From a virus: a stretch of 64,000 bases of DNA. Location: the IMG/VR virus record IMGVR_UViG_3300030419_007903, positions 12,421-76,420 of that record. The stretch is one strand, 5' to 3'. Position 1 is the first letter of the stretch, and each line of letters starts with the position of its first letter. The position numbers were made by a program, and so were the translations under genes. Positions 2,268-19,966 of the stretch are shown here, piece by piece. The notes under the pieces were generated by a model. It did not search any database. It saw nothing but the letters and a program-made list of their open reading frames with translations, and had not been told where the DNA came from.

Positions 2268-2448
2268 TTAAAAAAATTTTTTTAAATCTTAACAAATCGT
2301 TTTTTATCTCTAATGCCATCTTTTTTCTAATAGCATCTTCGTCATCCATAACTTCCGTAGCGCACTCTTCGGAATATTTTTTTAATAATTTTTTTAAATA
2401 AGCGTAAGCCTCTCTCGGCTTAGCTCTTTCAAATTCGTTAATATTCAT
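2257..2448 (-). CDS. Hypothetical protein
   Basis: 63 aa helical ORF tiled between neighbours. Confidence 0.65.
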   Translation of the reverse strand: MNINEFERAKPREAYAYLKKLLKKYSEECATEVMDDEDAIRKKMALEIKNDLLRFKKIFLSGD

Positions 2449-2909
2449 TTTAAAGATTTGATATAATCGTCCTCTAAATGGTGAAATCCTCGTCTTTCAT
2501 AAAAGTCTCCAAGCTTTGCATAGGATGGCACCCCCTTAATCCGACTCATAATAATTTGATAATAATCATTTTTTATGGCAAACTCTTCTACTTGTTTATA
2601 AAGGCGAATGCATTCTAAAGAGCCGCGTTTTTCTTTAGGGCAGAACCACGCCATCTCTTTTAGTATCTTGTTTCCATTCCAAAGCGATGTAGTATTATTC
2701 ACTACAATTCCAGAGCTAGGTGGGGAGCCTGCCCCGTCAGAGGAAGCCCAACCAAGTAAAGTCTGGTTAGAGAATCCTTGGTCAAGCGACCTCTGAACGT
2801 GGGTAGGGTTATACTCACCAAATGTGAGGTGAGCATCGGACTCGTACCAAAACTCTTGCCCTAACTGGACAAAACGTAAAACGTCAGCTCTGGTAGCTTT
2901 GCGAATCAC
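2445..2909 (-). CDS. GNAT family N-acetyltransferase
   Basis: MIRKAT start, WFCPKEKRG (motif A-like), FYERRGF (motif B). Confidence 0.8.
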   Translation of the reverse strand: MIRKATRADVLRFVQLGQEFWYESDAHLTFGEYNPTHVQRSLDQGFSNQTLLGWASSDGAGSPPSSGIVVNNTTSLWNGNKILKEMAWFCPKEKRGSLECIRLYKQVEEFAIKNDYYQIIMSRIKGVPSYAKLGDFYERRGFHHLEDDYIKSLK

Positions 2910-3196
2910 ACCAACAAATCCGGCACCTCGTCAGCACTATCTTGAGTAGCTGCAGTGGTGTTTTGATTTTTAGGAGTATCCTCGTCCAAGCGCCGATTTT
3001 TATAAAGAATATAATCTGGCGCTCTGTCAGAAGTCTTGTTCTTGTTTTTGAAAACAACAAGCTCAACCTTCTCGTCATTAACGGAACAGTGGCCAGACAT
3101 AAAGTCCTGAGTTGTTCCTTGCTTCATCCACAGCGCACCGACTTCTCGTTCGCGCCACTCGTTTTTCTTAGTAGGGGTAGTAGTATTATTACTCAT
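2906..3196 (-). CDS. DUF736-like small protein (possible nucleic-acid binder)
   Basis: EVGALW...FMSG...VFKN..K...APDY pattern and acidic tail. Confidence 0.6.
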   Translation of the reverse strand: MSNNTTTPTKKNEWREREVGALWMKQGTTQDFMSGHCSVNDEKVELVVFKNKNKTSDRAPDYILYKNRRLDEDTPKNQNTTAATQDSADEVPDLLV

Positions 3197-3202
3197 ATAG
3201 GT

Positions 3203-3385
3203 TTATTTAAGGGTCTTTTCGTTTTCTTTTGACTTTAAGACCAAATCTTGTATTAAAATCTTAGTTGATTTATTCACTTTGTCAAGAAATAAAGGTGAAA
3301 TTCTGGAAATTTGTGGTCTTTTTTCTTTAACAATTTGTTCAGTGAATTTTTTACATGCAGCTCTGTTTATAACAGTAGTAATCAT
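3203..3385 (-). CDS. Small basic protein, candidate alpha3-truncated histone fold
   Basis: 60 aa from ATG 3385: INRAACKKF helix, SRIS loop, long helix, terminal KTLK. Confidence 0.6.
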   Translation of the reverse strand: MITTVINRAACKKFTEQIVKEKRPQISRISPLFLDKVNKSTKILIQDLVLKSKENEKTLK

Positions 3386-3465
3386 GTCCAAGGGTTTCCT
3401 TTTCCTTTGTAATGTAATACAACAGTCATATAAATTGACGCTATGATTAAAAAAGCTAAGTACAT
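3382..3465 (-). CDS. 27-aa hydrophobic micropeptide
   Basis: Own translation MYLAFLIIASIYMTVVLHYKGKGNPWT; fills the gap and its TGA overlaps the next ATG (ATGA). Confidence 0.5.
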   Translation of the reverse strand: MYLAFLIIASIYMTVVLHYKGKGNPWT

Positions 3466-3469
3466 AATA

Positions 3470-4012
3470 TTATCTATATTCTTCTTTTAAAAGTCTCCAC
3501 CTGTCTGGATCAAGTGCCCTTTTACCATAATCGATTTCCTTGATGGTGTCAACTACTTTTTCTATACTATCGAAAAAATAATGAGGGGGAAGCATTCCTG
3601 CAAGCCAAAGAGGTACTTTTTGTCTACCTCCTTCAATACTCACAAAGACAGGTTTTTTCATTCTATTAGCGCACATAATTTCTTCTGTCGAACCCCATGA
3701 TCCTACATGAGGTACAATATGAGCAATAATAAAATCAGATCTATCCACTAGATTCAAATCGCTGCGACGAATGGAACTCATATGATTATACACATAATCA
3801 AAACTGCCTTCTTCAAGTTTTTTATTTAAAAAATCTCGCGTATTGAAGTTTTCGTCAATGTCGCTAATAAAAGGTTTATCTAAAGGATCATAAAAAATAA
3901 TGTTAGCCTCTTTTAGCTCCTCTTTAACAAAATCTCTCCAATCTCCCGGTTCTGCATATTGCATATGCCCTACTAAATAACATCTAGTTTTATCTAAAAT
4001 ATGTTTTTTCAT
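3470..4012 (-). CDS. Nucleoside 2-deoxyribosyltransferase / NMP hydrolase-like protein
   Basis: YLVGHM, WR, YDP, DLNLVDRSD, SWGSTEE motifs; start set at MKKH (ATGA overlap). Confidence 0.75.
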   Translation of the reverse strand: MKKHILDKTRCYLVGHMQYAEPGDWRDFVKEELKEANIIFYDPLDKPFISDIDENFNTRDFLNKKLEEGSFDYVYNHMSSIRRSDLNLVDRSDFIIAHIVPHVGSWGSTEEIMCANRMKKPVFVSIEGGRQKVPLWLAGMLPPHYFFDSIEKVVDTIKEIDYGKRALDPDRWRLLKEEYR

Positions 4013-5232
4013 ACATCTGAAATTATACATGCATGTTTAGAGCATAGAGGGATATCTTTCCACGGGTAACTGCCTCCAACGCTTTCATCCCAAATATCAT
4101 CGGGCAATCCCAGCTCTAACAAGCGATTATGAATTCTACGATCATAATTATGTCGAATCATCTCTACAATTCTTTGTATCTCAGGCCGTCTACGATCAGT
4201 GGTATTAGATTGGTCACTGTTGCAATATTGAATATACCCTAATTTAGGAATATGGCAAATGCGAGATTTTAAAAAAGTTCTTACAATTAAATCGTAATCA
4301 TCTCCTACGTGCAACCGAGCATTGTGCCCTCCTACTTCATGATATAACGAAGAACGCCAACACCTTACATGATTAGCTACTCCAACAATATGTCGAATAG
4401 TCTTTTGATTAAGGCGCGGGTAATTCATAGTTAGATAGGTGCGCCCTTTGTAAAGCTCCTCCCTGTAACCCCCGTAACCAAATGCATACTCTCCGTAATC
4501 TACACATTTACCTGTGGCCTCAATAAATTCGGTGCAATCCGTATAACACATTCCAACTTGGGGGTATTTGTTAAAACTTTCTACTACCCATGCAAGACAC
4601 TCATCAGTAAGAACATCATCATGATCCAATTCACATAAAAACTCTCCTTTCCCAAGGGAAAAAGCATTTCTTTTTACTTCACCTATACGTCCACTCCGGC
4701 AATCACTCTTAAATACTTTTATTCGATGATCTGTTTTAGCTAGATCACACAAAAGGCTATAAGTCTCTCCGTCATCATCAGAATCATCATACAAAATCCA
4801 TTCCCAATTTTTATAAGTCTGATTTTGAAGGCTTTCTAGCGGCCTAAAGATTTTATCTTTGCATTTATAGGTAGGGGTAATGACAGAAACTAGAGGTTTT
4901 GAAACATTAGGCTCAAAACACTGCCGCCGATATAAATCGTAGACTTGCTCTCCTATCAACTCGATAGCATCTCCATCATTAAAATTAAGCCACTTCTTCC
5001 GAACTTCAAACGGAGCATAAGATAAAGCTTCATGTGTAGTCCAATCTCCAAAAGTAATATAGGCATTAGGACTAAGACTTTTTTCTATCGCGTCTAAATT
5101 AGCGTCAGTCTCATAGTTGAAAACAGTAATCCCCCTTTCCAACCATTCAGGAAATTCGCGATGACTATAAAGAGCCTCGATTTTTTTTCCAAAAACTACC
5201 GCGCAAATTCTGTCTGATGCATCAAACTCCAT
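4009..5232 (-). CDS. Glycosyltransferase family 2 with N-terminal extra domain
   Basis: LVSVITPTY, SLQNQTY, YDDSDD, ELDHDD, GDDYDL. Confidence 0.9.
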   Translation of the reverse strand: MEFDASDRICAVVFGKKIEALYSHREFPEWLERGITVFNYETDANLDAIEKSLSPNAYITFGDWTTHEALSYAPFEVRKKWLNFNDGDAIELIGEQVYDLYRRQCFEPNVSKPLVSVITPTYKCKDKIFRPLESLQNQTYKNWEWILYDDSDDDGETYSLLCDLAKTDHRIKVFKSDCRSGRIGEVKRNAFSLGKGEFLCELDHDDVLTDECLAWVVESFNKYPQVGMCYTDCTEFIEATGKCVDYGEYAFGYGGYREELYKGRTYLTMNYPRLNQKTIRHIVGVANHVRCWRSSLYHEVGGHNARLHVGDDYDLIVRTFLKSRICHIPKLGYIQYCNSDQSNTTDRRRPEIQRIVEMIRHNYDRRIHNRLLELGLPDDIWDESVGGSYPWKDIPLCSKHACIISDV

Positions 5233-5969
5233 TAAAGGATTTCTAACAGTTTCATTATTTCTTTTTTAGGAATATCTCTCCAAGATTCCCAGTCAGCAGC
5301 GTCTTCGTTTTTATACTGGCCGCTCTTCCACAGGCCCCGCAAAATATCTTTGAAAGTAGCAAAGTCTTCTTCTCCAAGTCCAATCTTTTGCATGAGTATA
5401 TTCAAAGGGGTAAACTTTTCTTTATTGTCTGCCTGAATCTTAGCTGGAGGCGTTCCGTTAGAGGTGTCAATTTCATCGGCTCCCACAATATGAACATTTA
5501 AAAAATTGCGCACACAGCGAACAAAAGCTCTATTTGCTGCGATTGTTTCTAAAAACTTTTGAGCGAAACTGCTGGTGTTATGAACTGTAGCATTAGCTAG
5601 ATCTTCAAACGATGTACTTGGTGGAAGAAAATCTGATTCTTCTTTCGGATTTTCAAAATTGGGAATCCAATTTATTTCACACTTTACTGAAACATGATCT
5701 ATTTCGCATTTAATAACTTCATAATGGACTCTATTAAAGCCACGCAGCTTTGCTAATTCTTTAATGCCAGATAGCTTAATTAAAAGTTGATTATCCGCAA
5801 GCCCCTCTATTGATTGAGGCATTGGTTGGTTCCTCATTTCAAACCAACCTTTATTTGGGTAAAGGTGCTCTGCGGCTATCATAGCGCGCCAGTTTACTGT
5901 ACCATCTTCGTTATATTCGTAATTTACCCCTTCGAGGAGCCCAAGTTCGTTTCGTTTGTATTGTGCCAT
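5232..5969 (-). CDS. Putative single-strand annealing protein (Rad52/Sak/ERF-like)
   Basis: IKLSGIKELA...TIAANRAFVRCVRNFL...GADEID resembles the core helix of phage annealases; followed by a linker and small C-terminal domain. Confidence 0.55.
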   Translation of the reverse strand: MAQYKRNELGLLEGVNYEYNEDGTVNWRAMIAAEHLYPNKGWFEMRNQPMPQSIEGLADNQLLIKLSGIKELAKLRGFNRVHYEVIKCEIDHVSVKCEINWIPNFENPKEESDFLPPSTSFEDLANATVHNTSSFAQKFLETIAANRAFVRCVRNFLNVHIVGADEIDTSNGTPPAKIQADNKEKFTPLNILMQKIGLGEEDFATFKDILRGLWKSGQYKNEDAADWESWRDIPKKEIMKLLEIL

Positions 5970-7168
5970 TCTATTTTTTGCCTTGCCGATCCATTAATTA
6001 ATCTATAATGATCTAACTCCTTCCAGAAGTCGTCAGTATCATAAATGAATTCAGGCGCACCTGTCAACTCTTTTTTTGCTTTTTGTGCCTCGCGACATGA
6101 ATATTTTTTTCCTTGGCTAAGCAATATTTTGCCTGACAAAAACATAGTATTATTAGAATCTAATATAAGAGGGCGGTCAGGAAAAATACGGTTATCGGTA
6201 TCTTTCTTAAGATCTTCTTTTGACTTAAAAATACTTTTATTGACCTCAAAATCAAAAAATTTGAAACGATAATCATTTATCTTGTCTAAGTCTTCGCAAA
6301 AAATTTGCACATTATTTCCTGTTGCTTTAGCTTGCCTCAAATAGTCCTCAGTAAAATGCTCATTAATATTAATTGTTAGTTGAGCTATGCTCTTCTTAAA
6401 ATATTTTAATAAATTTAAGTTGATAGGCTTATCCGTAAGAATGTTGATTTTACGATTTTGCAGCCAATGTATAGCCATTTGCTCATTAAATTCATAATCC
6501 ATTCTGAGATTAAGTGCGCGGCCTTCCATGAAGCCTTTCTGTGGCACAAAGTCAGGAATAACCTCTACTACTCTCGTTGGGTATAAATCTCCAATATGAA
6601 AGGTCTCATGCTCTACTCTATCTTCGAGCCCTAATTTTTTAAAGATCTCATTAGCAATTTTCTCTGGCTCAATAAAGTTAATAGTTTTAGGACTCTCTCC
6701 TACTCCGTAAGCGGGTAGATTACCGTCTCGATGGCTTTCTAGGCCTAAATGTGAACTGCTCCATAAGGGAGAAGTACATTGGGAAGGGTAAGGGGAATAT
6801 AATCCAATACTAGGGACATTCAAAGCTGATGCAAAATAATTAGACATATTATCACACCCAACAATTAACTTGCTATGCTTTATCAAATAGCTTTCTTGCT
6901 TTTTAAATAAATTAAGAAAAGGTTCTGCTCCTTCTATAACGCTTTGTGCGTCTTTGGCGAAGTTGTATATTATAATATTATGTTTATCAAGAACAGGCTC
7001 GATATAAGTCATTACATCTTCAAAAAGATTATAAATATTACTTTCATATTTGTTTCGGTCATCGATAATTATATAATCTTGTTCCGGTAACGGAAAATAA
7101 GAAGTACTTACAAATGGGTCTCGAATTTTAACCCCGCAATTTGATGCGTATTTTTCTAATATATTCAT
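5924..7168 (-). CDS. GT9/heptosyltransferase-like protein with C-terminal extension
   Basis: LIKHSKLIVGCDN...ASALNVPSIGLY motif typical of GT9. Confidence 0.6.
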   Translation of the reverse strand: MNILEKYASNCGVKIRDPFVSTSYFPLPEQDYIIIDDRNKYESNIYNLFEDVMTYIEPVLDKHNIIIYNFAKDAQSVIEGAEPFLNLFKKQESYLIKHSKLIVGCDNMSNYFASALNVPSIGLYSPYPSQCTSPLWSSSHLGLESHRDGNLPAYGVGESPKTINFIEPEKIANEIFKKLGLEDRVEHETFHIGDLYPTRVVEVIPDFVPQKGFMEGRALNLRMDYEFNEQMAIHWLQNRKINILTDKPINLNLLKYFKKSIAQLTININEHFTEDYLRQAKATGNNVQIFCEDLDKINDYRFKFFDFEVNKSIFKSKEDLKKDTDNRIFPDRPLILDSNNTMFLSGKILLSQGKKYSCREAQKAKKELTGAPEFIYDTDDFWKELDHYRLINGSARQKIEWHNTNETNLGSSKG

Positions 7169-9075: not shown

Positions 9076-9093
9076 ATAAAAGTTGAGGATAAT

Positions 9094-9129
9094 AAAAAAA
9101 CGCACCAACAATTCAAGTCGTTGGTGCGT
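9094..9129 (-). terminator. Intrinsic terminator after tubulin gene
   Basis: ACGCACCAAC-N10-GTTGGTGCGT hairpin followed by a T run on the minus strand. Confidence 0.75.
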
Positions 9130-9150
9130 ATAATTTGCTATTTGATGATT

Positions 9151-10356
9151 TTAAGCAAATAATTGATCGGGAGCTTCAATTCCACCTATAATAGTATAGA
9201 CAACTAATCCTTTTTTAGAAGTATGGTAGATGCCCCGATGAACGGTGGAACCCTCTCCCAACAGTCGCGTTAACTGTTCAAATCCATGCTCTAGGCTTTC
9301 TTGAGGAGTATTTTCTAAAGTGTCTTTATCTCCAATGACAACACATGCAGCAAATTTTCCAGTATTAACATCAATATTGGCTAAAATATTCTTCTTTAAA
9401 TTGTCCCGTACCGCATGGCTGATATCCGTTTCTTCAATGGTATCGCCGGAAGGCCTTACCGGAACAGCTCCGAAAGAAATAATTCCAGATGACATTACTG
9501 TATCTAAGTCAGCCTTATCAAAAGCAGTATATTCAGAATCTTGCGCCGCAATCTTATTAAATAAATGAAATAGGGAGCAAATACTAGTATTTGCTGTATT
9601 CCAAAATTTATTCACAGAAAGTTTCGGATAAAGATGTTTGATCCTCTCATTATCTAAAATAATTAAAGGTGATAAAGTGCCGTTAGTTGAATATTTAATT
9701 AAAGCGTCTGCTGTTTCCTTCGCGTTATTTTTAACGCGGGAACCTTCGGATTTAGTAGGTAAAGCTAGCACGGCCCCTACTTTTGCTTCATAATCAGACT
9801 GCTCTACGCCAAAAGTCTGACATAAATCGTGGCACACATCCACTACAATAGGGCCTCCGCCAGCCCCCGTACCTCCCCCAGCACCGATACATACTAGGAT
9901 GCGGTCAATGCTGCTGCTAAAAGCTTTCTTAAGAAAATCTAGAATATCTTCTTTGTGTTCCTCAAATATTTTTTGAGCTACTTTTCTATCTTTTCCTGCT
10001 CCAGCACCTCCGATGAGCAATTTATTTTTTTCGGGTAATGCTATAGGTTTTAAATCTTGAGCTGCCGTATTGATAACAGCTACTCTTCTGTAACCTAATT
10101 TCCAAAAAGTTTCCGCTAATCGGGAACCTCCTTGGCCCACTCCCACAACAGCAAATCTATAAGCACTATCAAATTCATCTTCAATAACAACTTCTTGCGT
10201 ATCTTCGGCAGAAGGAAGAGGAATGTCTGGTATATCTACCGCCAGTTCATCAACTTCCTCAATTAAATCGGCCTTGATCTCTTCTTTATTCTCAGAGGCC
10301 TCTACTTGATTGTTTTCTGGTTCTTCCATTTTATATTCAGCTAAGGTTGGCATCAT
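9151..10356 (-). CDS. Tubulin/FtsZ family GTPase (PhuZ/TubZ-like) with acidic N-terminal extension
   Basis: GVGQGG, INT, GAGKD, GGGTGAGG signature, LDN, FDKADL T7-like loop. Confidence 0.92.
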   Translation of the reverse strand: MMPTLAEYKMEEPENNQVEASENKEEIKADLIEEVDELAVDIPDIPLPSAEDTQEVVIEDEFDSAYRFAVVGVGQGGSRLAETFWKLGYRRVAVINTAAQDLKPIALPEKNKLLIGGAGAGKDRKVAQKIFEEHKEDILDFLKKAFSSSIDRILVCIGAGGGTGAGGGPIVVDVCHDLCQTFGVEQSDYEAKVGAVLALPTKSEGSRVKNNAKETADALIKYSTNGTLSPLIILDNERIKHLYPKLSVNKFWNTANTSICSLFHLFNKIAAQDSEYTAFDKADLDTVMSSGIISFGAVPVRPSGDTIEETDISHAVRDNLKKNILANIDVNTGKFAACVVIGDKDTLENTPQESLEHGFEQLTRLLGEGSTVHRGIYHTSKKGLVVYTIIGGIEAPDQLFA

Positions 10357-10361
10357 TTCTA

Positions 10362-10961
10362 TCAAAAAGGAGCGTCATCCTCTTCAATATTTACACGTGT
10401 TTCAGACTTTTTTTCTTTATTTTGAGTAGCTGGAGTAGACTTTGTTCCTCCATCGGCTCTATATTCCTCTTCTTGTTGAGCTTTTACGTCAAAAACTACC
10501 TGAAAATATCTCTCAATTAATTTTTTTAAAACCTCAGTTTCTCCCGGTTCTAAAGCAATTCTATAATTCTGATTGCCATTACGTGTCACTGCGAGTCCAA
10601 AAGCGGGAGATTTGTAAGTTTGATCGACTCCATCTTTCCCTTTGATTTTTCTTGGCTTGTCCCACGGTGCAAAACGAATAGTAGTAGTGTTATCATTATA
10701 ATTATGGTATGAATTCCATGGAATGCGAGAACTAATAGACGATAAAATTTCTCCTAGCTCAAAGTCGTTCAACTTAAAACTTACATTTTTGTCATCCGCA
10801 TCTTTATTTTTAATAAAACTGCCGGTCTTCTTTTTATCATCCCAGCTATGTTGTTGAATAGCATTGACATAAAAAACAGGCAGTTTGCCTTGCGTAGAAA
10901 CACGAAAACTGAAAGCACATCCAGTATTTTTAGAATTGGGCTTATAAATAGCTACGTTCAT
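10362..10961 (-). CDS. Putative ssDNA-binding protein (Whirly/PC4-like) with SSB-type acidic tail
   Basis: Two beta-sheet plus helix repeats (FKLNDFELGEIL; IALEPGETEVL); ends in EEDDAPF. Confidence 0.65.
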   Translation of the reverse strand: MNVAIYKPNSKNTGCAFSFRVSTQGKLPVFYVNAIQQHSWDDKKKTGSFIKNKDADDKNVSFKLNDFELGEILSSISSRIPWNSYHNYNDNTTTIRFAPWDKPRKIKGKDGVDQTYKSPAFGLAVTRNGNQNYRIALEPGETEVLKKLIERYFQVVFDVKAQQEEEYRADGGTKSTPATQNKEKKSETRVNIEEDDAPF

Positions 10962-11377: not shown

Positions 11378-11385
11378 AGATGCAG

Positions 11386-11413
11386 ATAATAAAGACTTAA
11401 GTTAAAATGTCAA
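11386..11413 (-). promoter_or_regulatory. Sigma70-type promoter
   Basis: TTGACA-16-TATTAT, 8 nt before ATG 11377. Confidence 0.7.
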
Positions 11414-11617: not shown

Positions 11618-11619
11618 GA

Positions 11620-13083: not shown

Positions 13084-13091
13084 AATATTAC

Positions 13092-13103
13092 TATATATTA
13101 CAC
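13092..13103 (-). promoter_or_regulatory. GTGTA-N3-TATA phage promoter motif
   Basis: GTGTAATATATA 8 nt before ATG 13083; recurs at four other gene starts. Confidence 0.65.
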
Positions 13104-13120
13104 ATAATACATTTAATTCC

Positions 13121-13149
13121 AAAAAAAAATGCACCAAATGGTGCATTTT
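13121..13149 (-). terminator. Intrinsic terminator
   Basis: AAAATGCACC-ATTT-GGTGCATTTT plus T run on the minus strand. Confidence 0.8.
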
Positions 13150-13171
13150 CATAAGATTTTAACCTGCTAGA

Positions 13172-13423
13172 TTAAGCTTCGTAATAAAAAATAGTCCCTA
13201 TTTGAGCGTTGGTTACGGCTCCGGTGACTAAAAGAGGATTATTATTAAAATTAGCGCCTCCACTGGCTACTACAACATCTACGCTGTTAGCTGTAAAATT
13301 AGCGGTAGCTGCGGTAATATAAATATTTTTATCCTCTCTAACGCCGAATCCGTCAGTGGTCTGCGTTGGATCGGCTATAGTTATAGCGTTGTTAATTTTA
13401 CATGGGCGATTGTCGTGTGCCAT
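13172..13423 (-). CDS. Hypothetical beta-rich protein (possibly virion-associated)
   Basis: 83 aa, Thr/Ala/Asn-rich. Confidence 0.65.
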   Translation of the reverse strand: MAHDNRPCKINNAITIADPTQTTDGFGVREDKNIYITAATANFTANSVDVVVASGGANFNNNPLLVTGAVTNAQIGTIFYYEA

Positions 13424-13436
13424 AATAATATAAAAT

Positions 13437-13613
13437 TTATTTTACGATTGTATCTCCCACTAATGAGTGATTCTCGCTAGGGTGGTCATAAACATTATCA
13501 CGGGCAGCGGGAGCTGGGGCCGGAGCTTCTGGAGCTGCTGCCTTGGGAGCTGCGGGTGGTACTGACGGAGTAGAGGCCGGGGCTGCAGGAGTTGGATTAT
13601 CCTCAAGTGCCAT
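13437..13613 (-). CDS. 58-aa Pro/Ala-rich disordered protein
   Basis: Own translation MALEDNPTPAAPASTPSVPPAAPKAAAPEAPAPAPAARD...; GGAGG upstream; fills the gap. Confidence 0.7.
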   Translation of the reverse strand: MALEDNPTPAAPASTPSVPPAAPKAAAPEAPAPAPAARDNVYDHPSENHSLVGDTIVK

Positions 13614-13616
13614 ACA

Positions 13617-13820
13617 TTAACCCTCCTTTTTGGTTTCGCCGTCGGCAGCCTTGGCTGCTTCAGATGTAACTCCTTGACGTAAAAATACTACCATAGCCGC
13701 AGCAAAAACTGCTTGAATAGTAGTAGATAAATCAACCTCTCCAGCAAAATATGCGCCGAGAGCCGTTAAAACCGCTGCACCAGCGGTGAAATAGGTCTTT
13801 TTACCTGAAAGTGCTTTCAT
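13617..13820 (-). CDS. Small two-TM membrane protein, holin-like
   Basis: LSGKKTY start, two hydrophobic segments, FLRQG, charged tail. Confidence 0.65.
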   Translation of the reverse strand: MKALSGKKTYFTAGAAVLTALGAYFAGEVDLSTTIQAVFAAAMVVFLRQGVTSEAAKAADGETKKEG

Positions 13821-13825
13821 ACTAG

Positions 13826-13837
13826 TATAATATACAC
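13826..13837 (-). promoter_or_regulatory. GTGTA-N3-TATA phage promoter motif
   Basis: GTGTATATTATA 5 nt before ATG 13820. Confidence 0.65.
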
Positions 13838-13843
13838 CTTAAA

Positions 13844-16285
13844 TTAAAAATCCACACAAACTTTATCAGATTTTTTGTCGTATTTTACAGAGAATTCTGT
13901 CTTCTGAGTATTAGCCACTATCTCTCGAGAAATAACATCTGACACCTCTCTTTGAATAATTCTTTTAATCGAGCGAGCACCAAATTCTTTATCGCTTACT
14001 TTTGTAAAAATAAAATTAGATAAGTTTCTGGAGAAACAAAGGGTAAGTCCATTATTACCCGCGCTTTCCTTCAGGTTTTTTAATTCATAATTAATTATAG
14101 ATCTTAAATTTGCATCAGATAATTTATTGAAAAATAAAACATCATCAAAACGATTGATTAATTCTAAAGGCAATAGTTTTTTAACTTCCTTAAAAGCGTC
14201 TTCTACATTTGACTCTTGCAAGTTTTCAGACCCAAATCCTAAAGATTGAGTTTTAGATAATTGAGCTGATCCTATATTTCCCGTAACTATAATAATTGAG
14301 TTATGAAAGCGACCTACGCGGCCATGCGAATCAGTCAGTCTACCTTCATCTAGAATCTGCAATAACATCTGATGAACTTTTGGGTGAGCTTTTTCTATTT
14401 CGTCAAACAAGATAACACAATGAGGATTTTTACACACCTTCTCTACTAGTAATCCTCCATTCTCGTGACCTATATAGCCCGGATTAGAGCCAGTTAACTT
14501 GGAAACACTAGATTCTTCAGAAAATTCAGACATGTCTAAGTGCATAAAGCTCTCTTTGCTCCCAAAAAAAGTACTGGCCAGCATTTTAGCTAAAAAAGTC
14601 TTGCCTACTCCAGTGGTGCCCAAAAATAAAAACGAACCAATAGGTCTATTTCCGTCTCGCAATCCACTTTTATGCCTCATTAAGCACTTAGAAATAGTTT
14701 CAACAGGCTTCTCTTGACCTACAATAACTTTTTTTAATTTTTTTTCTAAATATAGATACTTTTCTGTTTCTGATTTAAGAAACTCATCTAAAGGAATATT
14801 AGTTTTAGTAGAAAGTACTTCAAATAAATGATTACGAGTCAACTTATATTTGTTGGAGGTTATTTTATTCTGCCATGAAATTAACGCTTTTTTCAAAGCC
14901 TCAAAAGTCGTGGATTGATCGTCATTCATGTTTGTAAAAGAATTGCCAATTTTAGAGAAAGATTCCACTAATGAATTCTCAAGGTCTGCTATTTTTTTTG
15001 GTTTAACAATTTTTTTGACTTTGACGTGACTACATGCCAAGTCCATTAAATCAATTGCCTTGTCCGGAAATTGTGAATCAAGCATATAGCGATCTGAATA
15101 ATCGACTATGTCATTAAGTATTTCTTCAGAAATAGCAACTGAATGATATTCTTCATAAATAGTTTTTTTTCGTAAAAGAATCTCTAAAGTAGATTTTTTA
15201 CTAGGCTCATTAATAACCAAAGATTGGAATCTTCTTTGAAGAGCTTTATCTTTTGTGAATTTTTGCCGATATTCTTTGAATGTAGTAGCCCCTACAACTG
15301 TTATTTCTCCATTAGATAAGGCGGGCTTGAGTATATTAGCTGCATCTAAACCTCCCTCTGCGTCTCCAGCCCCGATTAAAGTATGAATTTCATCTATAAA
15401 TAATATAACAGAATCATGCTTTGCTTCTTCAATTACCTGTTTTATGCGGGCCTCAAACTCTCCACGGTATTTAGTACCGGCAAGCATAGAGCTTAAATTC
15501 AGTTCATAAAAAATTTTGTCGTTAAGAAAAAATGAAGATTTATTGCGGACAATGTTTTGAACTAATGCTTCTACCACAGCAGTCTTGCCCACTCCAGCTT
15601 CTCCGATAATAATAGCGTTATTCTTCTTTCTCCTGTTTAAAATATCCTCAAGCTTGCTAACTTCTTCTTCTCTGCCGTAAACGGGATCAAGTTTATTTTC
15701 TAAAGCTTTTTGAGTCATATTTGTTCCCAACTTATCTAGCAGCGCAAAATGCTGACGCTGACTAGAAGAGCTAATCATATCTTGAACAGTCCCTTCATTC
15801 ATAGAGCTCGAAATATCATTGCTATCTTCAGCATCACACAAATAATCTAAAACTTTTGTAGTGACAAAGTTCATATCAACACCAAGAAAGACTAATATCT
15901 CGTCCGGAATTAATGCTATATCTTTAAATATAGCCATAAAAATATGCTCAGCGCTCACCCATGAATGAGACAAATCTTGCGCCAACTGAGTCGCGTTTTT
16001 TAACACTTCTTTTAACTCGGCAGAAAGCTTGAATTCATCGGGTTTTAATTTCTCTGGCTGCTCCACCAAAACAGTTGCGTATAGGTGATGTCGGAAATTA
16101 TTGAGGTCCAGACCGGCCTCAACTAAAACTTCAATGCATCGACTTTTCTTCAATTCAAAGAATGCTGCAAATAAATGTGCCACACCTACATCTGTGTAGT
16201 TGAGTTCTTGCGCTATCTTCTTACAAAGCTGCAACAGCTTTTGCGAGCGAGGGGTAAAATTAATATCTTGGTTATCTAGCGTCAT
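13844..16285 (-). CDS. clpC: ClpA/ClpC-type AAA+ unfoldase
   Basis: Clp N-terminal repeats, GEAGVGKT/FIDEIH, GTTGVGKT/LFDEIEKAH, SLGF ClpP-docking loop. Confidence 0.92.
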   Translation of the reverse strand: MTLDNQDINFTPRSQKLLQLCKKIAQELNYTDVGVAHLFAAFFELKKSRCIEVLVEAGLDLNNFRHHLYATVLVEQPEKLKPDEFKLSAELKEVLKNATQLAQDLSHSWVSAEHIFMAIFKDIALIPDEILVFLGVDMNFVTTKVLDYLCDAEDSNDISSSMNEGTVQDMISSSSQRQHFALLDKLGTNMTQKALENKLDPVYGREEEVSKLEDILNRRKKNNAIIIGEAGVGKTAVVEALVQNIVRNKSSFFLNDKIFYELNLSSMLAGTKYRGEFEARIKQVIEEAKHDSVILFIDEIHTLIGAGDAEGGLDAANILKPALSNGEITVVGATTFKEYRQKFTKDKALQRRFQSLVINEPSKKSTLEILLRKKTIYEEYHSVAISEEILNDIVDYSDRYMLDSQFPDKAIDLMDLACSHVKVKKIVKPKKIADLENSLVESFSKIGNSFTNMNDDQSTTFEALKKALISWQNKITSNKYKLTRNHLFEVLSTKTNIPLDEFLKSETEKYLYLEKKLKKVIVGQEKPVETISKCLMRHKSGLRDGNRPIGSFLFLGTTGVGKTFLAKMLASTFFGSKESFMHLDMSEFSEESSVSKLTGSNPGYIGHENGGLLVEKVCKNPHCVILFDEIEKAHPKVHQMLLQILDEGRLTDSHGRVGRFHNSIIIVTGNIGSAQLSKTQSLGFGSENLQESNVEDAFKEVKKLLPLELINRFDDVLFFNKLSDANLRSIINYELKNLKESAGNNGLTLCFSRNLSNFIFTKVSDKEFGARSIKRIIQREVSDVISREIVANTQKTEFSVKYDKKSDKVCVDF

Positions 16286-18897
16286 TTTAAGTCAGAAAGT
16301 TTCATGTAAATTCTTTGATCTAAAACACTCATGTCGTTTACAAAAACAGTTCCATCTCCTTTACGGCCTGTGATTATAGCAATGGAGTCTTTTTCTGGCA
16401 AGCTTTTTCCTTTATTTAAATACGGCTGATATTCTCTCTCCATAAATATACACTTAGCCTCTGAAGTTTCATCTGACGCGACAATAAAATAATACTTTTT
16501 ATTAGTCTGTGAAGTTTTTTTAAGGCATGACTTGACCGTTCCTACAAATTTGACAAAAGCATTATCAGTAAGCTCGAATATTTCTTTGCAGGTTATCATA
16601 GAATCTTTGTCCCGGCCTCTAAATGTATCTTTAAGTTTCTTGGTATAACTATAACCTAATAATTGTTTTTCAAAATACCAATTAGCAAAATCTTCATTAT
16701 TGCCTTCATTATTTTTATCATAGATAGATTTATAGGGTTCATATTTAGCTTTGAAAGTCGCAAGGCGACTAGGCTTCATGAAAGGACGGTTATCGTCTCC
16801 CATTAGTGGAGGTTCCGTCTGCGTTGCCCTTTTAATAATTTTTAAAATGTCATAATTATATTCTTCCCCTAAAGCTTTGGCTATTCTTCTTTCTCTATCT
16901 GTTAAGATATTATAAGATTGAGCTTCTAATACTAGCCGAGCTCTAGAATTGCTCCCCGCAAAAGAGTTTAAAGTCCCTGCTTGAATCAATCCTGAAAAAA
17001 CGCCTATATTTATTCCTGCTTGCTTGGCTGCCTCAAAGACTTCAAATTTATTTAATTCCTCCGGACTACCTTTTCTGAAGGTCAGGATACTTTGAAGGCT
17101 TTTCAAGCTCACTCCTTTTATTGCGTCTAGACCATAACGAATATTTTTACCTTCAATCGAAAATTCTTCTTGAGATTTTGCTAAGTCAGGACGTAATAAC
17201 TTCATTTCATACATAGGTAATTCGGAAGCTACCTTGCTTATTTGGTCAAACGGCTCCGACTCATTTTTGGCCATCTTAAGGAGAGCTACAAAAAACTCTT
17301 GTGGATATTTAAATTTAACATAGGTTGTCCACGCTGAAAGCATAGCATAAGAAATCGAATGAGACTTATTAAAAGAATAGTTGGCACTATCTTCCGCCAC
17401 TTGCCACAATACATCTGCTATCTCCATTCCTCGATGCCCAGTCCATGCGTTAGTTAAGCGCTTTTCCTCTACTTTTTTGGCAATCTTTTCCCTCCATGCG
17501 GGCATCTGGTCAACTTTCTTCTTGCCTACAATTCGACGGAGCTGTTCCGCTTCATCTAAGGTAAATCCTACCTTAACCGCCATTTTCATTAACTGCTCTT
17601 GATAAAGCGGAATTCCTCCTGTATAATCTAATATTTCTGAAAACTCAGGATGCACTAATTCTGAGTCGCCGGTTCTAATATAAGAAGCATATTGGTCTTT
17701 AAAATTTAAAGCCCCGGGTCGCGCGATAGCTACCACCGCTGAAATCTCTTCTAAATTTCGAGGTTTTACTTTGCAGCATACATCAAAATTAGTATCTGCT
17801 TCAATCTGAAATAATCCCTGCCCTCCCCGAAAACGAAGGTCTTGTAAATTTTTATAAATAAAATCATCTTGCAAGTCAATCTTTTCAAAGTCAAGATCTA
17901 TCCCTTGCGTAGTTTTGAGCATATTTTTTGCATCATTAATCACCGTTAAAGTTTTTAACCCAAGTATATCAAATTTGACTGTAAGCTCAGCGATCCAATT
18001 CATATCATAGCAAGATATTAAATCTCCATCTTTAGTCTTTTGAATTGGACAAATATCAGTTAATTGATGATGCGAAATAGCAATCCCTGAAGCGTGAACA
18101 CCTGTGTTCTTGATTAACCCTTCGAGCTTTCGCGCTACATTAAATGCTTCAGGATGCTTCTCGGTCCAATCTGAAAACTTTTCACTCTCTTCTTTCGCTG
18201 TGTTGAGTTTGGCTACTTTGCCGAAAACCACGGGAATCTGGTCGCTAACATCATTCATTTCATCCTCACTTAAAAGGCCAACTAGTTTTCCAACTTCTTT
18301 AATGCAAAGCTTGCCGCTTAATGTAACTAAATTTAAAATTTTACATGTACGGCCTTTATATTTTCTTTTAATATATTCAATAACTTCTGATCGACGATCA
18401 TAAGCAATATCGTTATCGACATCAGCTAATAAACTTCCATCTAAATAAGTAACTCCATTTTTTTCAATTTTACGCGCTCTGGTACGGGAGACGAACCTTT
18501 CAAAAAATAAATCATATTTCAAAGGATCAACTTTAGTGACCCCTAAAAAATATAAAACTAAACTGCCTGCGGCCGAACCCCTTCCCGGCCCCGTGGGAAT
18601 ATTATTTTCATGGCAAAAATTTAAGACTTCCCAGTTTAATAATATGTAATCAACAAAACCTAATTCTTCAAAAATAGAAATTTCCATCTTCATTCGGTCG
18701 ATGTAATTTTTATCTTTTGTCGTAAAGCCTTTAGCTCGCATATTTTCACTACATAGCTTTTTAAGAAATTGCAGATTTGAACTATCTGAAGAAATGCCTA
18801 ATTCTCGATAATACTTTTCTTCAATATTGATCTTAGGAAGTAGCACTCCTGCAGGAGCGCATTCATCGTAAGTGGTAAAATTGCTATAAAAACTCAT
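16282..18897 (-). CDS. dnaE: DNA polymerase III alpha, catalytic part lacking the PHP domain
   Basis: GPGRGSAAGSLV, FERF, DVDND, HASG, KFDILGL, YQEQ, YSFNKSH, C-terminal OB fold. Confidence 0.95.
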   Translation of the reverse strand: MSFYSNFTTYDECAPAGVLLPKINIEEKYYRELGISSDSSNLQFLKKLCSENMRAKGFTTKDKNYIDRMKMEISIFEELGFVDYILLNWEVLNFCHENNIPTGPGRGSAAGSLVLYFLGVTKVDPLKYDLFFERFVSRTRARKIEKNGVTYLDGSLLADVDNDIAYDRRSEVIEYIKRKYKGRTCKILNLVTLSGKLCIKEVGKLVGLLSEDEMNDVSDQIPVVFGKVAKLNTAKEESEKFSDWTEKHPEAFNVARKLEGLIKNTGVHASGIAISHHQLTDICPIQKTKDGDLISCYDMNWIAELTVKFDILGLKTLTVINDAKNMLKTTQGIDLDFEKIDLQDDFIYKNLQDLRFRGGQGLFQIEADTNFDVCCKVKPRNLEEISAVVAIARPGALNFKDQYASYIRTGDSELVHPEFSEILDYTGGIPLYQEQLMKMAVKVGFTLDEAEQLRRIVGKKKVDQMPAWREKIAKKVEEKRLTNAWTGHRGMEIADVLWQVAEDSANYSFNKSHSISYAMLSAWTTYVKFKYPQEFFVALLKMAKNESEPFDQISKVASELPMYEMKLLRPDLAKSQEEFSIEGKNIRYGLDAIKGVSLKSLQSILTFRKGSPEELNKFEVFEAAKQAGINIGVFSGLIQAGTLNSFAGSNSRARLVLEAQSYNILTDRERRIAKALGEEYNYDILKIIKRATQTEPPLMGDDNRPFMKPSRLATFKAKYEPYKSIYDKNNEGNNEDFANWYFEKQLLGYSYTKKLKDTFRGRDKDSMITCKEIFELTDNAFVKFVGTVKSCLKKTSQTNKKYYFIVASDETSEAKCIFMEREYQPYLNKGKSLPEKDSIAIITGRKGDGTVFVNDMSVLDQRIYMKLSDLK

Positions 18898-19526
18898 ATC
18901 TCTACATTCCAAATAAGTTTATTAAAAATTTTGAGAGTCATCTCGACATCATAAATCGCATCGTGCAGCTTCTTTGGGTCAAATTCAATATCAAACTCTT
19001 GCAAAAGAGTTTGTTGTCTAGTTTTTAGGCCTCTCTGTATATAGTTGTTAAGCTTACATTGCCAAAAAGTTAAATTACCATCGGGCTGCTTTAGTCCTAA
19101 CTTATAGGCTTTAGCGATACAATTTGTGTCTATAATTCTATTCATATAACTATAATCAGTTTTTTTGCCGCACATCTTTCTTAATATGTTATGAATGTAA
19201 ACATCAAAACCAATTACATTGTGACCTATTAAAAGATAATCCTGATTATATAAATAATTATCAAAAAACTCTAGAACCTGCGCCGGCTTTTTCTTTTTTT
19301 TATCATGAGTTGACTGATTAAATCCAGTAATTTTTTTTGCCTCTGGGGAAATATCTAAGTCTGGTACATCAATATGAAGATCGTATCGATTAAGTATGTT
19401 ATTGCCTTCTGTGACAATAAAGCCTAATTGCCACGGTCGAGAGTATCTTAGGTTTAAACCCTCGGTTTCAAAATCGAATACAATATATTTCTGCTTCTTT
19501 CTAAAACGTAATAAACTATTGGTCAT
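18894..19526 (-). CDS. DEDDh 3'-5' exonuclease (DnaQ/epsilon-like)
   Basis: FDFETEGL, GHNVIGFD, LHDAIYDV. Confidence 0.9.
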   Translation of the reverse strand: MTNSLLRFRKKQKYIVFDFETEGLNLRYSRPWQLGFIVTEGNNILNRYDLHIDVPDLDISPEAKKITGFNQSTHDKKKKKPAQVLEFFDNYLYNQDYLLIGHNVIGFDVYIHNILRKMCGKKTDYSYMNRIIDTNCIAKAYKLGLKQPDGNLTFWQCKLNNYIQRGLKTRQQTLLQEFDIEFDPKKLHDAIYDVEMTLKIFNKLIWNVEI

Positions 19527-19966
19527 TTTTTCTCAATCTTACAGAAATCAAAATATTCCGAACCATAATCGATAGTTAACTCAGATTCGGCTTTAATATC
19601 CCTGTTCGCTATATAAGAACATAGGAAGCGATTCTTGTCAATAAAATAATCTATATTATTGTTATCCGCGTGATTGTATATCATGCCAAAGCCTAAAACC
19701 ACAACGGGGCGCGTAGCGTGCTGACTTAATATCCCGTCATGCTCATCACAAAACTCTTTCCAATCTTTACGAAGCTCTACCCAAGGTAAAGCGTAACGCT
19801 TTAATTCTGGATCGCAATCTTCCCATTTGTTATTTTTTAATAAAATTAAATGGGCTTCCTCTATAGTATCTCCCTTTTTAAGATTATGAGTGCAAAAAAC
19901 CCCGCGTCCTTCAATGGGTGATTGACGAATTTCTAAATGGGGAGATAAAGATAATTTATTATTCAT
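19523..19966 (-). CDS. SET-domain protein-lysine methyltransferase
   Basis: SPIEGRGVF, IYNHA, RDIKAESELTIDYG. Confidence 0.92.
   Translation of the reverse strand: MNNKLSLSPHLEIRQSPIEGRGVFCTHNLKKGDTIEEAHLILLKNNKWEDCDPELKRYALPWVELRKDWKEFCDEHDGILSQHATRPVVVLGFGMIYNHADNNNIDYFIDKNRFLCSYIANRDIKAESELTIDYGSEYFDFCKIEKK

What the first reader, a model, noticed from the sequence alone, without database searches (positions are those of the whole stretch)
2445..19966. Possible phage chromatin system: histone + GNAT acetyltransferase + SET methyltransferase + tubulin
Seen: the candidate histone lies in one tightly tiled gene run with a DUF736-like protein and a GNAT two genes downstream. A SET-domain gene is translationally coupled to the dnaQ-like/dnaE pair, and a tubulin gene lies between. 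Known: GNAT and SET enzymes write lysine acetyl and methyl marks. Inference: the phage may package its DNA on its own histone and modify it. This is the strongest candidate for an undescribed system here, but phage GNAT and SET genes also occur without histones, so the link is unproven.
Basis: inference. Interest (0 to 1): 0.8.

Follow-up and report, generated by a model that had tools for sequence, protein, structure and literature searches.

The report
Phage mini-histone, not a chromatin-writer system
An uncultured marine phage really does encode a tiny histone-fold DNA-binding protein, but the acetyltransferase, SET methyltransferase and tubulin genes nearby each occur in related phages without it, so nothing supports a dedicated histone-modifying system.

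Summary
The 60-aa ORF (3385..3203, minus strand) is a genuine histone-fold protein. Its family profile hits the archaeal alpha3 histone HTkC (PDB 9F2C, E 5.9e-5). The AlphaFold model (pLDDT 91) matches almost only histone folds (HTkC Z 5.5, HLp 5.2, HBb 4.8). A handshake homodimer is predicted (ipSAE 0.83, best control 0.00). It is a minimal variant with no alpha3 helix and no RxTxxxxD motif.

- SET: 31 of 32 SET-bearing viral records lack the histone, including all 8 near-complete genomes. SET's conserved context is a split Pol III operon (PHP-SET-DnaQ-DnaE-ClpB).
- GNAT: present only in the window's closest sub-lineage. Relatives that keep the histone have a 52-54-aa ORF in its slot.
- Tubulin: this type occurs in 95 viral contigs. 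None of 9 whole tubulin-bearing records outside the lineage has the histone.
- G002: a syntenic relative that keeps SET but lacks histone, tubulin and GNAT.

The only neighbour that is always adjacent to the histone is the DUF736-like protein with an acidic tail, and it too occurs alone. Phage alpha3 histone-fold proteins are already described (Schwab 2024; Liu 2024). Earlier scan notes report minimal phage SET genes in varied contexts on other genomes.

The parts
3203..3385 (-). 60-aa histone-fold protein of the minimal alpha3-less type: alpha1 8-22, L1 23-30 (R-I-S), alpha2 31-51, C-terminal loop ending K-T-L-K; pI 10.1, net charge about +8
   Evidence: Profile hit to HTkC 9F2C at E 5.9e-5. 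AF2 pLDDT 91. VIA-align top hits are nearly all histone folds. Homodimer ipSAE 0.83 against control 0.00. Charge.
3392..3469 (-). AT-rich intergenic gap upstream of the histone, with an AAGGAAA ribosome-binding site and a GTCA-N7-TGAC palindrome (3425-3439); possible promoter or operator
   Evidence: Sequence. The palindrome is conserved in L001. A noncoding gap precedes the histone in all lineage members. No function tested.
2906..3196 (-). DUF736-like protein: basic N-terminal domain (pI 9.5) plus acidic tail (pI 4.05) ending DEVPDLLV; the only neighbour adjacent to the histone in every histone-bearing contig
   Evidence: 8 of 8 family members hit PF05284. Adjacency shown. Also occurs without the histone.
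2445..2909 (-). GNAT-like acetyltransferase (154 aa), an accessory gene specific to the window's sub-lineage
   Evidence: PHROG 1249 at E 7.1e-9. Atlas viral GNAT clusters score 0.97-0.99. Absent from G003 and G033-G036.
2257..2448 (-). 63-aa conserved small ORF of unknown function
   Evidence: Homologs in L001, L002, G033 and G036.
1851..2267 (-). dCMP deaminase
   Evidence: PF00383 at E 6.4e-17.
3470..4030 (-). Nucleoside 2-deoxyribosyltransferase-like protein (186 aa); present only in the window's sub-lineage at this site; its homolog lies near SET in class B phages
   Evidence: Weak PF05014 and PF15891 hits. Presence matrix. Class B context.
9151..10365 (-). Tubulin/FtsZ-family GTPase with a TubZ-like C-terminal domain, coupled to the upstream SSB-like gene
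   Evidence: PF00091 at E 1.5e-14 and PF22453. 95 related viral contigs.
10362..10961 (-). 199-aa protein ending in an SSB-like acidic tip (EEDDAPF); part of the conserved backbone
   Evidence: Sequence. Conserved in L001, G003, G033, G036 and G002.
19523..19966 (-). Minimal SET-domain methyltransferase (147 aa) with GxG, NH and ELTIDY motifs
   Evidence: PF00856 at E 8.6e-12. Best PDB match is vSET 1N3J at E 5.7e-8. 31 homolog clusters.
18894..19526 (-). DnaQ-like 3'-5' exonuclease
   Evidence: PF00929 at E 6.9e-18.
16282..18912 (-). DnaE-type Pol III alpha lacking its own PHP domain
   Evidence: PF07733, PF17657 and PF14579 hits with no PHP hit.
13844..16285 (-). ClpB/ClpA-like double AAA+ ATPase
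   Evidence: PF07724, PF00004, PF10431 and PF02861.
22311..23162 (-). Stand-alone PHP-domain protein; directly precedes SET in 16 related loci, but here is separated from it by a 2.3-kb insertion
   Evidence: PF02811 at E 1.1e-7. Context.
19972..20059 (-). tRNA-Leu(TAA), 6 nt upstream of SET
   Evidence: ARAGORN.

Best explanation
The region 2445-19966 is the replication and nucleotide-metabolism arm of an uncultured marine tailed-phage-like genome (76-kb contig, about 53% complete by CheckV). It holds several independent modules and not one system.

(1) The histone. A 60-aa, strongly basic protein that most likely forms a handshake homodimer. It probably binds DNA non-specifically through the conserved L1 R-[IV]-S and L2 K-T-L elements and an N-terminal N-R, bending or coating DNA as the bacterial alpha3 histones HBb and HLp do. 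It is probably transcribed from its own upstream intergenic region together with a DUF736-like protein. DNA binding and the role in infection are inferred, not shown.

(2) The GNAT-like gene. A recently inserted accessory gene of a widespread ~153-aa phage GNAT type. Its substrate is unknown.

(3) SET. A fixed component of a conserved split Pol III operon (PHP-SET-DnaQ-DnaE-ClpB). Its target is therefore more likely a replication-associated or host protein than this histone.

(4) The tubulin. It belongs with the SSB-like gene upstream of it and is a widespread marine-phage tubulin.
For: Histone fold:
- Family profile against PDB: HTkC 9F2C at E 5.9e-5, aligning RVSP and KTL. 9F2C is identified as an FtF alpha3 histone in PMC11390915.
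- AF2 model: pLDDT 91, alpha1-L1-alpha2-loop.
- VIA-align against 48,161 chains: TAF4 Z 6.2, HTkC Z 5.5 (rmsd 1.9 A, 53 aa), HLp Z 5.2, HBb Z 4.8, and nearly all of the top 40 are histone folds.
- Homodimer: ipSAE 0.83 against a best control of 0.00. This mark was reached by 20 of 30 proteins solved as pairs and 1 of 23 solved as single chains. The runs agree in 100% of contacts and pLDDT is 90. The pass may reflect likeness to solved histone dimers.
- pI 10.1.

Independence of the other genes:
- SET: 38 IMG/VR loci. The histone is in 1 of 32 records searched and 0 of 8 records at least 90% complete. PHP-SET-DnaQ-DnaE-ClpB occurs in 16 loci, NDT-like plus tandem SET in 9, and SET-RNR in 6.
- GNAT: absent from G003 and G033-G036, both in the module and in the whole records. 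Its relatives occur in T7-like Aeromonas phages between ligase and portal. There are many viral GNAT clusters.
- Tubulin: 95 viral contigs, and 0 of 9 whole records outside the lineage have the histone.
- G002 has the same backbone but lacks histone, tubulin, GNAT and dCMP deaminase.
- Histone and DUF736-like are adjacent in all nine histone contigs with DNA in hand.
Against: - No experiment shows DNA binding. The protein lacks alpha3 and the RxTxxxxD 'RD clamp' of characterised alpha3 histones, so its DNA-binding mode could differ or be absent.
- Foldseek E-values against PDB were all above 0.7, and VIA Z of 5-6 is modest for a helical protein.
- All histone-bearing contigs long enough to reach the site also carry SET and tubulin. 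An opportunistic interaction within this lineage is therefore not excluded.
- Most viral records are fragments, so some absences (the GNAT ones especially, in records 25-52% complete) could reflect missing sequence.
- The histone profile could miss very divergent histone folds in the 'histone-less' phages.
Confidence: 0.72

Rival explanations
1. One reading: a dedicated phage chromatin system. The phage coats its DNA with the mini-histone, the GNAT acetylates it, the SET enzyme methylates its lysines, and the tubulin organises the resulting nucleoprotein.
For: All four genes are real. The histone has 11 lysines. The GNAT is in the same tiled run, two genes downstream. Every histone-bearing record that reaches the site also has SET and tubulin. 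The best solved relative of the SET protein is a histone H3K27 methyltransferase, vSET.
Against: The co-occurrences all come from one syntenic lineage, so they amount to a single evolutionary observation. SET occurs without the histone in 31 of 32 records, including 8 of 8 near-complete genomes, and its conserved partners are polymerase genes 16 kb from the histone. GNAT is absent from five histone-bearing relatives. Tubulin occurs without the histone in 9 of 9 whole records. G002 keeps SET but lacks the other three. A published survey found no histone to chromatin-enzyme association in Caudoviricetes.
Confidence: 0.07
2. A two-gene histone plus DUF736-like module. The DUF736-like protein works with the histone through its basic domain and acidic, hydrophobic-tipped tail. 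It could act as a chaperone or antagonist that controls loading onto DNA, or as an adaptor that recruits the histone to the replisome.
For: The two genes are adjacent (0-6 nt apart) in all nine histone-bearing contigs, across divergence down to 40-43% (histone) and 34-46% (DUF736-like) identity. The charges are complementary: histone pI 10.1 and tail pI 4.05. The C-terminal tip is conserved ([ED][EV][IV]P[AD]LL).
Against: The DUF736-like gene is part of the older backbone and exists without the histone in G002 and in L058-L061. The histone may simply have been inserted in front of it. DUF736 has no known function.
Confidence: 0.25
3. The 60-aa protein uses its histone fold for protein-protein contacts and is not a DNA-packaging protein. 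It could work like TAF or NF-Y-type histone-fold subunits, for example as a small regulator of host or phage transcription or of a defence system.
For: The best structural match is TAF4 (Z 6.2), a two-helix histone-fold fragment. The protein lacks alpha3 and the RD clamp. The family is tiny, with 10 representatives among 1.84 billion proteins, which fits an accessory regulator.
Against: The closest sequence relative is a DNA-binding alpha3 histone. The L1 R-[IV]-S and L2 K-T elements, which contact DNA in archaeal histones (my own knowledge of HMfB), are the most conserved positions. The strong net positive charge is typical of DNA binders. A homodimer is confidently predicted.
Confidence: 0.12
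4. The GNAT, and possibly SET, act on small molecules or on DNA and not on proteins. Examples would be N-acetylation of an amino-sugar in the phage's large glycan pathway, or tailoring of a hypermodified base.
For: RmlA-like thymidylyltransferase (TIGR01207 at E 4.4e-51) and sugar epimerase/reductase genes lie just downstream of the GNAT. dCMP deaminase and a deoxyribosyltransferase-like gene flank the module. Class B SET genes sit among nucleotide-metabolism genes. An earlier scan note (e1-6088932, unchecked) reports GNAT plus SET in a thymidine-hypermodification operon in another phage.
Against: No thymidylate-synthase-like hydroxymethylase, 5-hmdU kinase or amino acid:DNA transferase was seen in the annotated replication region. 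The GNAT has no hit to a sugar N-acetyltransferase family. SET domains are known only as protein methyltransferases (my own knowledge).
Confidence: 0.15

Closest known systems
Alpha3-truncated prokaryotic histones: HTkC of Thermococcus kodakarensis (PDB 9F2C), HLp of Leptospira perolatii (9QT0), HBb/Bd0055 of Bdellovibrio bacteriovorus (8CMP)
   Same: About 60 aa consisting of the histone fold only. Same alpha1-L1-alpha2-L2 layout. RVSP in L1 and KTL in L2 align with HTkC. Structural superposition rmsd is 1.8-2.0 A over 51-53 residues. A homodimer is predicted.
   Different: The protein ends two residues after the L2 threonine, so there is no alpha3 at all. The RxTxxxxD motif is missing: Arg is replaced by E, Q, S or G, and there is no Asp. 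It is phage-encoded. DNA binding is untested.
Predicted phage histone-fold proteins: the 'phage histones' of Schwab et al. 2024 (PMC11390915) and the VHHH, BBVH, VTTH and VFFH clusters of Liu et al. 2024 (bioRxiv 10.1101/2024.12.06.627149)
   Same: Caudoviricetes-encoded alpha3-type histone folds found in metagenomes. Schwab's phage histones also lack RxTxxxD. The VHHH and BBVH types are likewise short singlets without a long C-terminal helix.
   Different: There is no C-terminal tetramerisation helix, unlike Schwab's phage histones and VTTH. I could not obtain those papers' sequences, so identity with VHHH or BBVH is untested. Pfam, PHROGs and a tblastn search of GenBank phages do not detect this family.
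vSET (A612L) of Paramecium bursaria chlorella virus 1, PDB 1N3J/3KMA
   Same: A minimal stand-alone viral SET domain. It is the best PDB sequence match (E 5.7e-8), and the GxG, NH and ExxxxY motif regions align.
   Different: vSET methylates host histone H3K27 in a eukaryote. Here the gene sits inside a phage Pol III operon, the host is a bacterium, and the substrate is unknown.
TubZ/PhuZ phage and plasmid tubulins
   Same: Tubulin/FtsZ GTPase domain plus a TubZ-like C-terminal domain, with a weak PHROG PhuZ hit.
   Different: No TubR-like adaptor was recognised. The gene is coupled to an SSB-like gene. The protein has a long acidic N-terminal extension. Any role in DNA positioning is inferred only.

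Membership tests
Alpha3-truncated histone family (Schwab et al. 2024) | Histone fold (alpha1-L1-alpha2-L2) that forms a handshake dimer | tested here: met
   AF2 pLDDT 91 with alpha1 8-22 and alpha2 31-51. Histone folds dominate the structural hits. Homodimer ipSAE 0.83 against control 0.00, with alpha2-alpha2 crossing at residue 41 and L1-L2 contacts.
Alpha3-truncated histone family (Schwab et al. 2024) | Detectable sequence homology to family members | tested here: met
   The profile of 13 sequences hits HTkC 9F2C at E 5.9e-5. The single sequence gives only E 0.45.
Alpha3-truncated histone family (Schwab et al. 2024) | Alpha3 helix shortened to 3-4 residues | tested here: inconclusive
   The protein and all 13 aligned relatives end at K-T-L-[KR], two residues after the L2 Thr. 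One relative has an unrelated tail. Alpha3 is therefore absent, a more extreme truncation than the definition describes.
Alpha3-truncated histone family (Schwab et al. 2024) | RxTxxxxD motif (RD clamp) | tested here: not met
   Only the Thr is conserved. The Arg position holds E, Q, S or G, and the chain ends before the Asp position. Schwab's phage-histone category also lacks this motif.
'Phage histone' category of Schwab et al. 2024 | C-terminal alpha-helical tetramerisation domain after the histone fold | tested here: not met
   The chain ends at residue 60, directly after L2.
GNAT acetyltransferases (Pfam PF00583 clan) | Match to a curated GNAT model | tested here: not met
   No Pfam hit at E <= 0.1. 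PF00583 finds nothing in the whole contig at E <= 1. No NCBIfam or PDB sequence hit.
GNAT acetyltransferases (Pfam PF00583 clan) | Indirect family evidence and acetyl-CoA motifs | tested here: inconclusive
   PHROG 1249 'acetyltransferase' at E 7.1e-9 over residues 1-149. The nearest Atlas clusters are viral ~153-aa proteins scoring 0.97-0.99, with PF00583 on 30-96% of members. A motif B-like FYE[KR]xGF is conserved, but motif A is degenerate (KRGxL in place of Q/RxxGxG/A).
SET-domain lysine methyltransferases (PF00856) | Match above the curated cut-off, with catalytic motifs | tested here: met
   45.8 bits against a cut-off of 22.4. IEGRGVF, YNHADNNN and ELTIDYGSEY align with vSET and S. pombe Set7.
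Tubulin/FtsZ family (PF00091) | GTPase domain above the curated cut-off | tested here: met
   55.1 bits against a cut-off of 33. The TubZ-like C-terminal domain scores 22.7 bits, below its cut-off of 26.
DUF736 (PF05284) | Match to the Pfam model | tested here: inconclusive
   The window's copy scores 16.6 bits, below the cut-off of 22.1. All 8 aligned family members hit DUF736 at E <= 0.1, best 3.3e-6.
Writer-substrate chromatin system (histone plus dedicated modifying enzymes) | Enzyme genes gained, lost or linked together with the histone across independent lineages | tested here: not met
   SET, GNAT and tubulin each occur without the histone, and the histone occurs without the GNAT.
Writer-substrate chromatin system (histone plus dedicated modifying enzymes) | The histone is actually acetylated or methylated by these enzymes | not testable with these tools
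   This needs in vitro assays or infection proteomics.

The most novel reading that the evidence does not exclude
This marine phage lineage has evolved the smallest known histone: two helices, no alpha3 and no RD clamp. It works as an obligate pair with the acidic-tailed DUF736-like protein to remodel phage or host DNA during replication. The lineage gained this histone and a tubulin on the same branch, so the two might cooperate in organising or positioning replicating phage DNA. The SET enzyme of the polymerase operon could then use the lysine-rich histone as one of its substrates.
Probability: 0.12. Interest if true: 0.7.

Novelty: new member of a known kind. Interest (0 to 1): 0.4.

Why it matters
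Histones in bacteria and their viruses were recognised only in the last few years, and no phage histone-fold protein has been studied experimentally as far as the papers I read show. This one is real, very small, and recurs in seawater metagenomes from about 16 studies. That makes it a convenient test case for what a two-helix histone can do to DNA and why a phage would carry one.

The negative result also matters. Gene adjacency in a tightly tiled phage genome plus eukaryote-style domain names (SET, GNAT, histone, tubulin) is not evidence of a chromatin system. Comparative genomics shows these genes move independently here.

Two by-products may be worth following up. One is a SET methyltransferase embedded in a split Pol III operon in at least 16 phage contigs. 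The other is the invariant pairing of the histone with the DUF736-like gene.

Tried and rejected
The long contigs carrying the distant histone clusters (179.7 kb, 84 kb, 63.9 kb) could not be fetched. Histone-GNAT co-occurrence at about 58% identity rests only on matching longest-contig lengths (63,934 and 8,078 bp).
I re-sent it in the documented N{63,63} form.
- The first strict pattern found nothing in viral contigs, because some copies have Trp in place of Phe. It gave one chance match in genome contigs (L003: no ORF, stops upstream). One relaxed version had too few specified bases. The corrected version found 5 viral contigs.
- Alignment A2 was too diverse for the search for related loci. 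Searches of viral contigs with A1 and with the single GNAT and SET proteins found nothing.
- The AF2 monomer from only 5 sequences was poor (pLDDT 64) and was not used.
- Foldseek against PDB gave no hit at E <= 0.001, although its top rows are histone folds.
- Pfam and PHROGs do not detect the histone. tblastn against 50,697 GenBank phages found no histone match.
- The Atlas gave only a weak PF00808 lead for the histone (rank 27, score 0.86).
- No RNA holder was listed among the public runs, so nothing can be said about expression.
- I considered a thymidine-hypermodification role for GNAT and SET, but found no supporting pathway genes.
- The sigma-70 promoter scan was at chance level: 10 sites found against 9.1 expected.
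- The DUF736-like profile had no meaningful PDB hit (best E 0.035, to a retron HNH protein).
- The 735-kb megaphage LR756501 has a distant SET (29% identity) with no polymerase neighbours and no significant histone match.
Full report
**What the window is.** The window is the last 64 kb of a single 76.4-kb contig. IMG/VR-style metadata class it as a linear virus record, about 53% complete. Almost all genes up to about 57 kb lie on the minus strand and are tiled with short overlaps. The DnaE has only distant phage relatives, at most 33% identity. The 1800-4100 stretch recurs in seawater metagenomes from about 16 studies, and the homologs come from Tara and other marine data.

**Observation.**
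- Histone candidate: 3385..3203.
- DUF736-like: 3196..2906, 6 nt downstream of the histone.
- GNAT-like: 2909..2445, with a GTGA overlap.
- Tubulin: 10365..9151.
- SET: 19966..19523, with an ATGA overlap onto the DnaQ-like exonuclease 19526..18894.
- DnaE: 18912..16282, overlapping the exonuclease gene.
Adjacency means little here, because the whole strand is tiled.

**Is the 60-aa protein a histone?**
- Pfam, PHROGs and the single-sequence PDB search were negative or weak.
- An exhaustive HMMER search of 1.84 billion representatives found only 10 clusters. They are all about 60 aa in their core and all end in K-T-L-[KR].
- A 13-sequence profile hits PDB 9F2C at E 5.9e-5, aligning RVSP (L1) and KTL (L2). 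9F2C is HTkC, the face-to-face alpha3 histone of Thermococcus kodakarensis (PMC11390915).
- With the 13-sequence alignment, AlphaFold2 gives pLDDT 91: alpha1 8-22, L1 23-30, alpha2 31-51 and a C-terminal loop.
- An all-against-representatives structural search returns almost only histone folds: TAF4 Z 6.2, HTkC Z 5.5 (rmsd 1.9 A over 53 residues), HLp Z 5.2, HBb Z 4.8, plus nucleosomal and giant-virus histones. Foldseek ranks the same families, but with E above 0.7.
- A homodimer is predicted with ipSAE 0.83 against 0.00 for the best of three controls. That mark was reached by 20 of 30 proteins solved as pairs and 1 of 23 solved as single chains. The runs agree in 100% of contacts, and pLDDT is 90. 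The contacts are alpha2-alpha2 crossing at residue 41, alpha1 on the partner's alpha2, and L1 against L2, which is the handshake geometry. This pass may partly reflect the model's memory of solved histone dimers.
- The protein is very basic (pI 10.1, 14 K+R against 6 D+E).
I conclude with about 85% confidence that it is a histone-fold protein related to the alpha3-truncated family. It is a more extreme form, with no alpha3 and no RxTxxxxD clamp.

**Is the GNAT linked to the histone?**
- The GNAT assignment itself is soft. There is no Pfam, NCBIfam or PDB hit. Support comes from PHROG 1249 (E 7.1e-9), many ~153-aa viral GNAT clusters as nearest Atlas neighbours, and a conserved FYE[KR]xGF motif.
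- Close relatives share the order histone, DUF736-like, GNAT: L001, L002 and L070, at 73-95% identity. A group at about 58% identity probably does too, judging from matching contig lengths.
- In the next relatives out (G003, the near-identical G033-G035, and G036; histone 40-43% identical) the block is p245, histone, DUF736-like, a 52-54-aa ORF, small ORFs, then dCMP deaminase. There is no GNAT in the module or anywhere in the records. Those records are only 25-52% complete.
- The only GenBank phage relatives of this GNAT are in T7-like Aeromonas phages, between ligase and portal.
The GNAT is therefore a lineage-specific accessory insertion.

**Is SET linked to the histone?**
- SET is solid: PF00856, with vSET as the best solved relative and the motifs intact.
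- An alignment-based scan found 38 SET loci in IMG/VR.
- Searching the 32 full records that are held with the histone profile gave one hit. That is G003, of the same lineage, at E 2.7e-32, which also serves as a positive control. None of the 8 records at least 90% complete (126-229 kb) has a hit.
- SET's neighbours fall into three classes. Class A is PHP-SET-DnaQ-DnaE-ClpB (16 loci, including a 93%-complete histone-less genome). Class B is a deoxyribosyltransferase-like gene followed by two tandem SET paralogs and a GuaC/IMPDH-like gene (9 loci, including six records at least 95% complete). Class C is SET-RNR2-RNR1 (6 loci).
- In the window, SET sits in a full replication module: RecA-like, DnaB, PD-(D/E)XK nuclease, PHP, [2.3-kb insertion], SET, DnaQ, DnaE, ClpB-like.
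SET's conserved association is with replication and nucleotide-metabolism genes, not with the histone.

**Is the tubulin linked to the histone?**
- Within the small sample of SET phages, tubulin and histone looked correlated. Both are present in the lineage, both are absent from G002, and tubulin is absent from 13 histone-less SET phages.
- From the tubulin side the correlation dissolves. The same tubulin type (56-85% identity) occurs in 95 viral contigs. Only the six contigs of the window's own lineage have the histone nearby. None of 9 whole tubulin-bearing records outside it, including a 144-kb record that is 90% complete, has the histone family.

**The decisive comparison.** G002 (61 kb) has the same backbone order: RecA-like ... 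DnaB ... PHP-SET-DnaQ-DnaE-ClpB ... SSB-like, GT648, p414, p245, DUF736-like. It differs in four ways.
- Only a 75-nt gap separates the p245 homolog from the DUF736-like gene, so there is no histone.
- The SSB-like gene is followed directly by the GT gene, so there is no tubulin.
- There is no GNAT.
- There is no dCMP deaminase.
Histone, tubulin and GNAT are individually dispensable accessory genes on a shared backbone, whereas SET belongs to the backbone.

**What stays with the histone.** Only the DUF736-like gene is adjacent in all nine histone-bearing contigs. It has a basic N-terminal domain and an acidic tail with a conserved hydrophobic tip. It also exists without the histone, in G002 and L058-L061. 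The simplest reading is that the histone was inserted in front of an older gene. A functional pairing remains possible (about 25%).

**Comparison with what is known.** Alpha3 histones of bacteria and archaea are characterised (HBb, HLp, HTkC). Phage-encoded alpha3 histone folds have been predicted in two surveys. One of them tested histone to chromatin-enzyme association and found none significant in Caudoviricetes. This protein is therefore a new, unusually minimal member of a known kind, and the "chromatin-writer system" is not supported. Earlier notes of this scan (unchecked) report minimal phage SET genes in several unrelated contexts on other genomes, which fits SET being used for different purposes in different phages.

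**Verdict.**
- Observation: confirmed.
- Interpretation: partly supported. The histone holds and the system does not.
- Most likely mechanism: a small dimeric DNA-binding or DNA-bending histone-fold protein. Binding is inferred, not shown.
- GNAT, SET and tubulin belong to separate modules.
- Interest: moderate (0.4).

Noticed in passing
window 16282-23162; loci L007-L012, L015, L020, L021, L024-L027, L031, L033, L036: A minimal SET methyltransferase sits between a stand-alone PHP-domain gene and the DnaQ/DnaE genes of a split Pol III operon in 16 viral contigs (SET identity 30-51%). In the window a 2.3-kb insertion separates PHP from SET. It carries two tRNAs, a cupin, a cytidylyltransferase and small ORFs.
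   Followed up: partly
L013 9478-10405; also L016, L017, L018, L022, L023: Complete phage genomes of 131-229 kb carry two tandem SET paralogs. They are flanked by a macro-domain-like gene, a deoxyribosyltransferase-like gene and a GuaC/IMPDH-like gene. The homolog of that deoxyribosyltransferase-like gene is the gene directly upstream of the histone in the window (3470-4030).
   Followed up: partly
   Followed up: partly
window 3425-3439 (minus strand): A GTCA-N7-TGAC palindrome lies in the intergenic region about 40 nt upstream of the histone start and is conserved in L001. It may be an operator. The more distant relatives have a different but mutually conserved upstream region.
   Followed up: no
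window 20006-20485 and 19972-20059: The cytidylyltransferase-like ORF overlaps tRNA-Leu(TAA) by 54 nt at its 3' end, so the true end of the protein, or the tRNA call, needs checking.
   Followed up: no
G000:C1:2225-3223 (upstream of the window): A 332-aa protein has a type IV pilin-like N-terminal signal (GFSLIELLVVIAIIAILAALLLPAL). By my recollection this resembles the DUF1559/H-X9-DG proteins typical of Planctomycetota and Verrucomicrobiota, which may be a hint to the host. No family search was run on it.
   Followed up: no
window 10362-10961 and 9151-10365: A 199-aa protein with an SSB-like C-terminal tip (EEDDAPF) overlaps the start of the tubulin gene. The SSB-like gene is part of the conserved backbone, and the tubulin is absent after it in G002. 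In the roughly 60%-identical tubulin phages the gene order is rearranged, with DnaE and the SSB-like gene downstream of the tubulin.
   Followed up: partly
L009 2564-4792: In G002 the RecA-like gene is 742 aa. It matches the window's 381-aa RecA-like protein in two separate pieces, which suggests an insertion (perhaps an intein) or a fusion.
   Followed up: no
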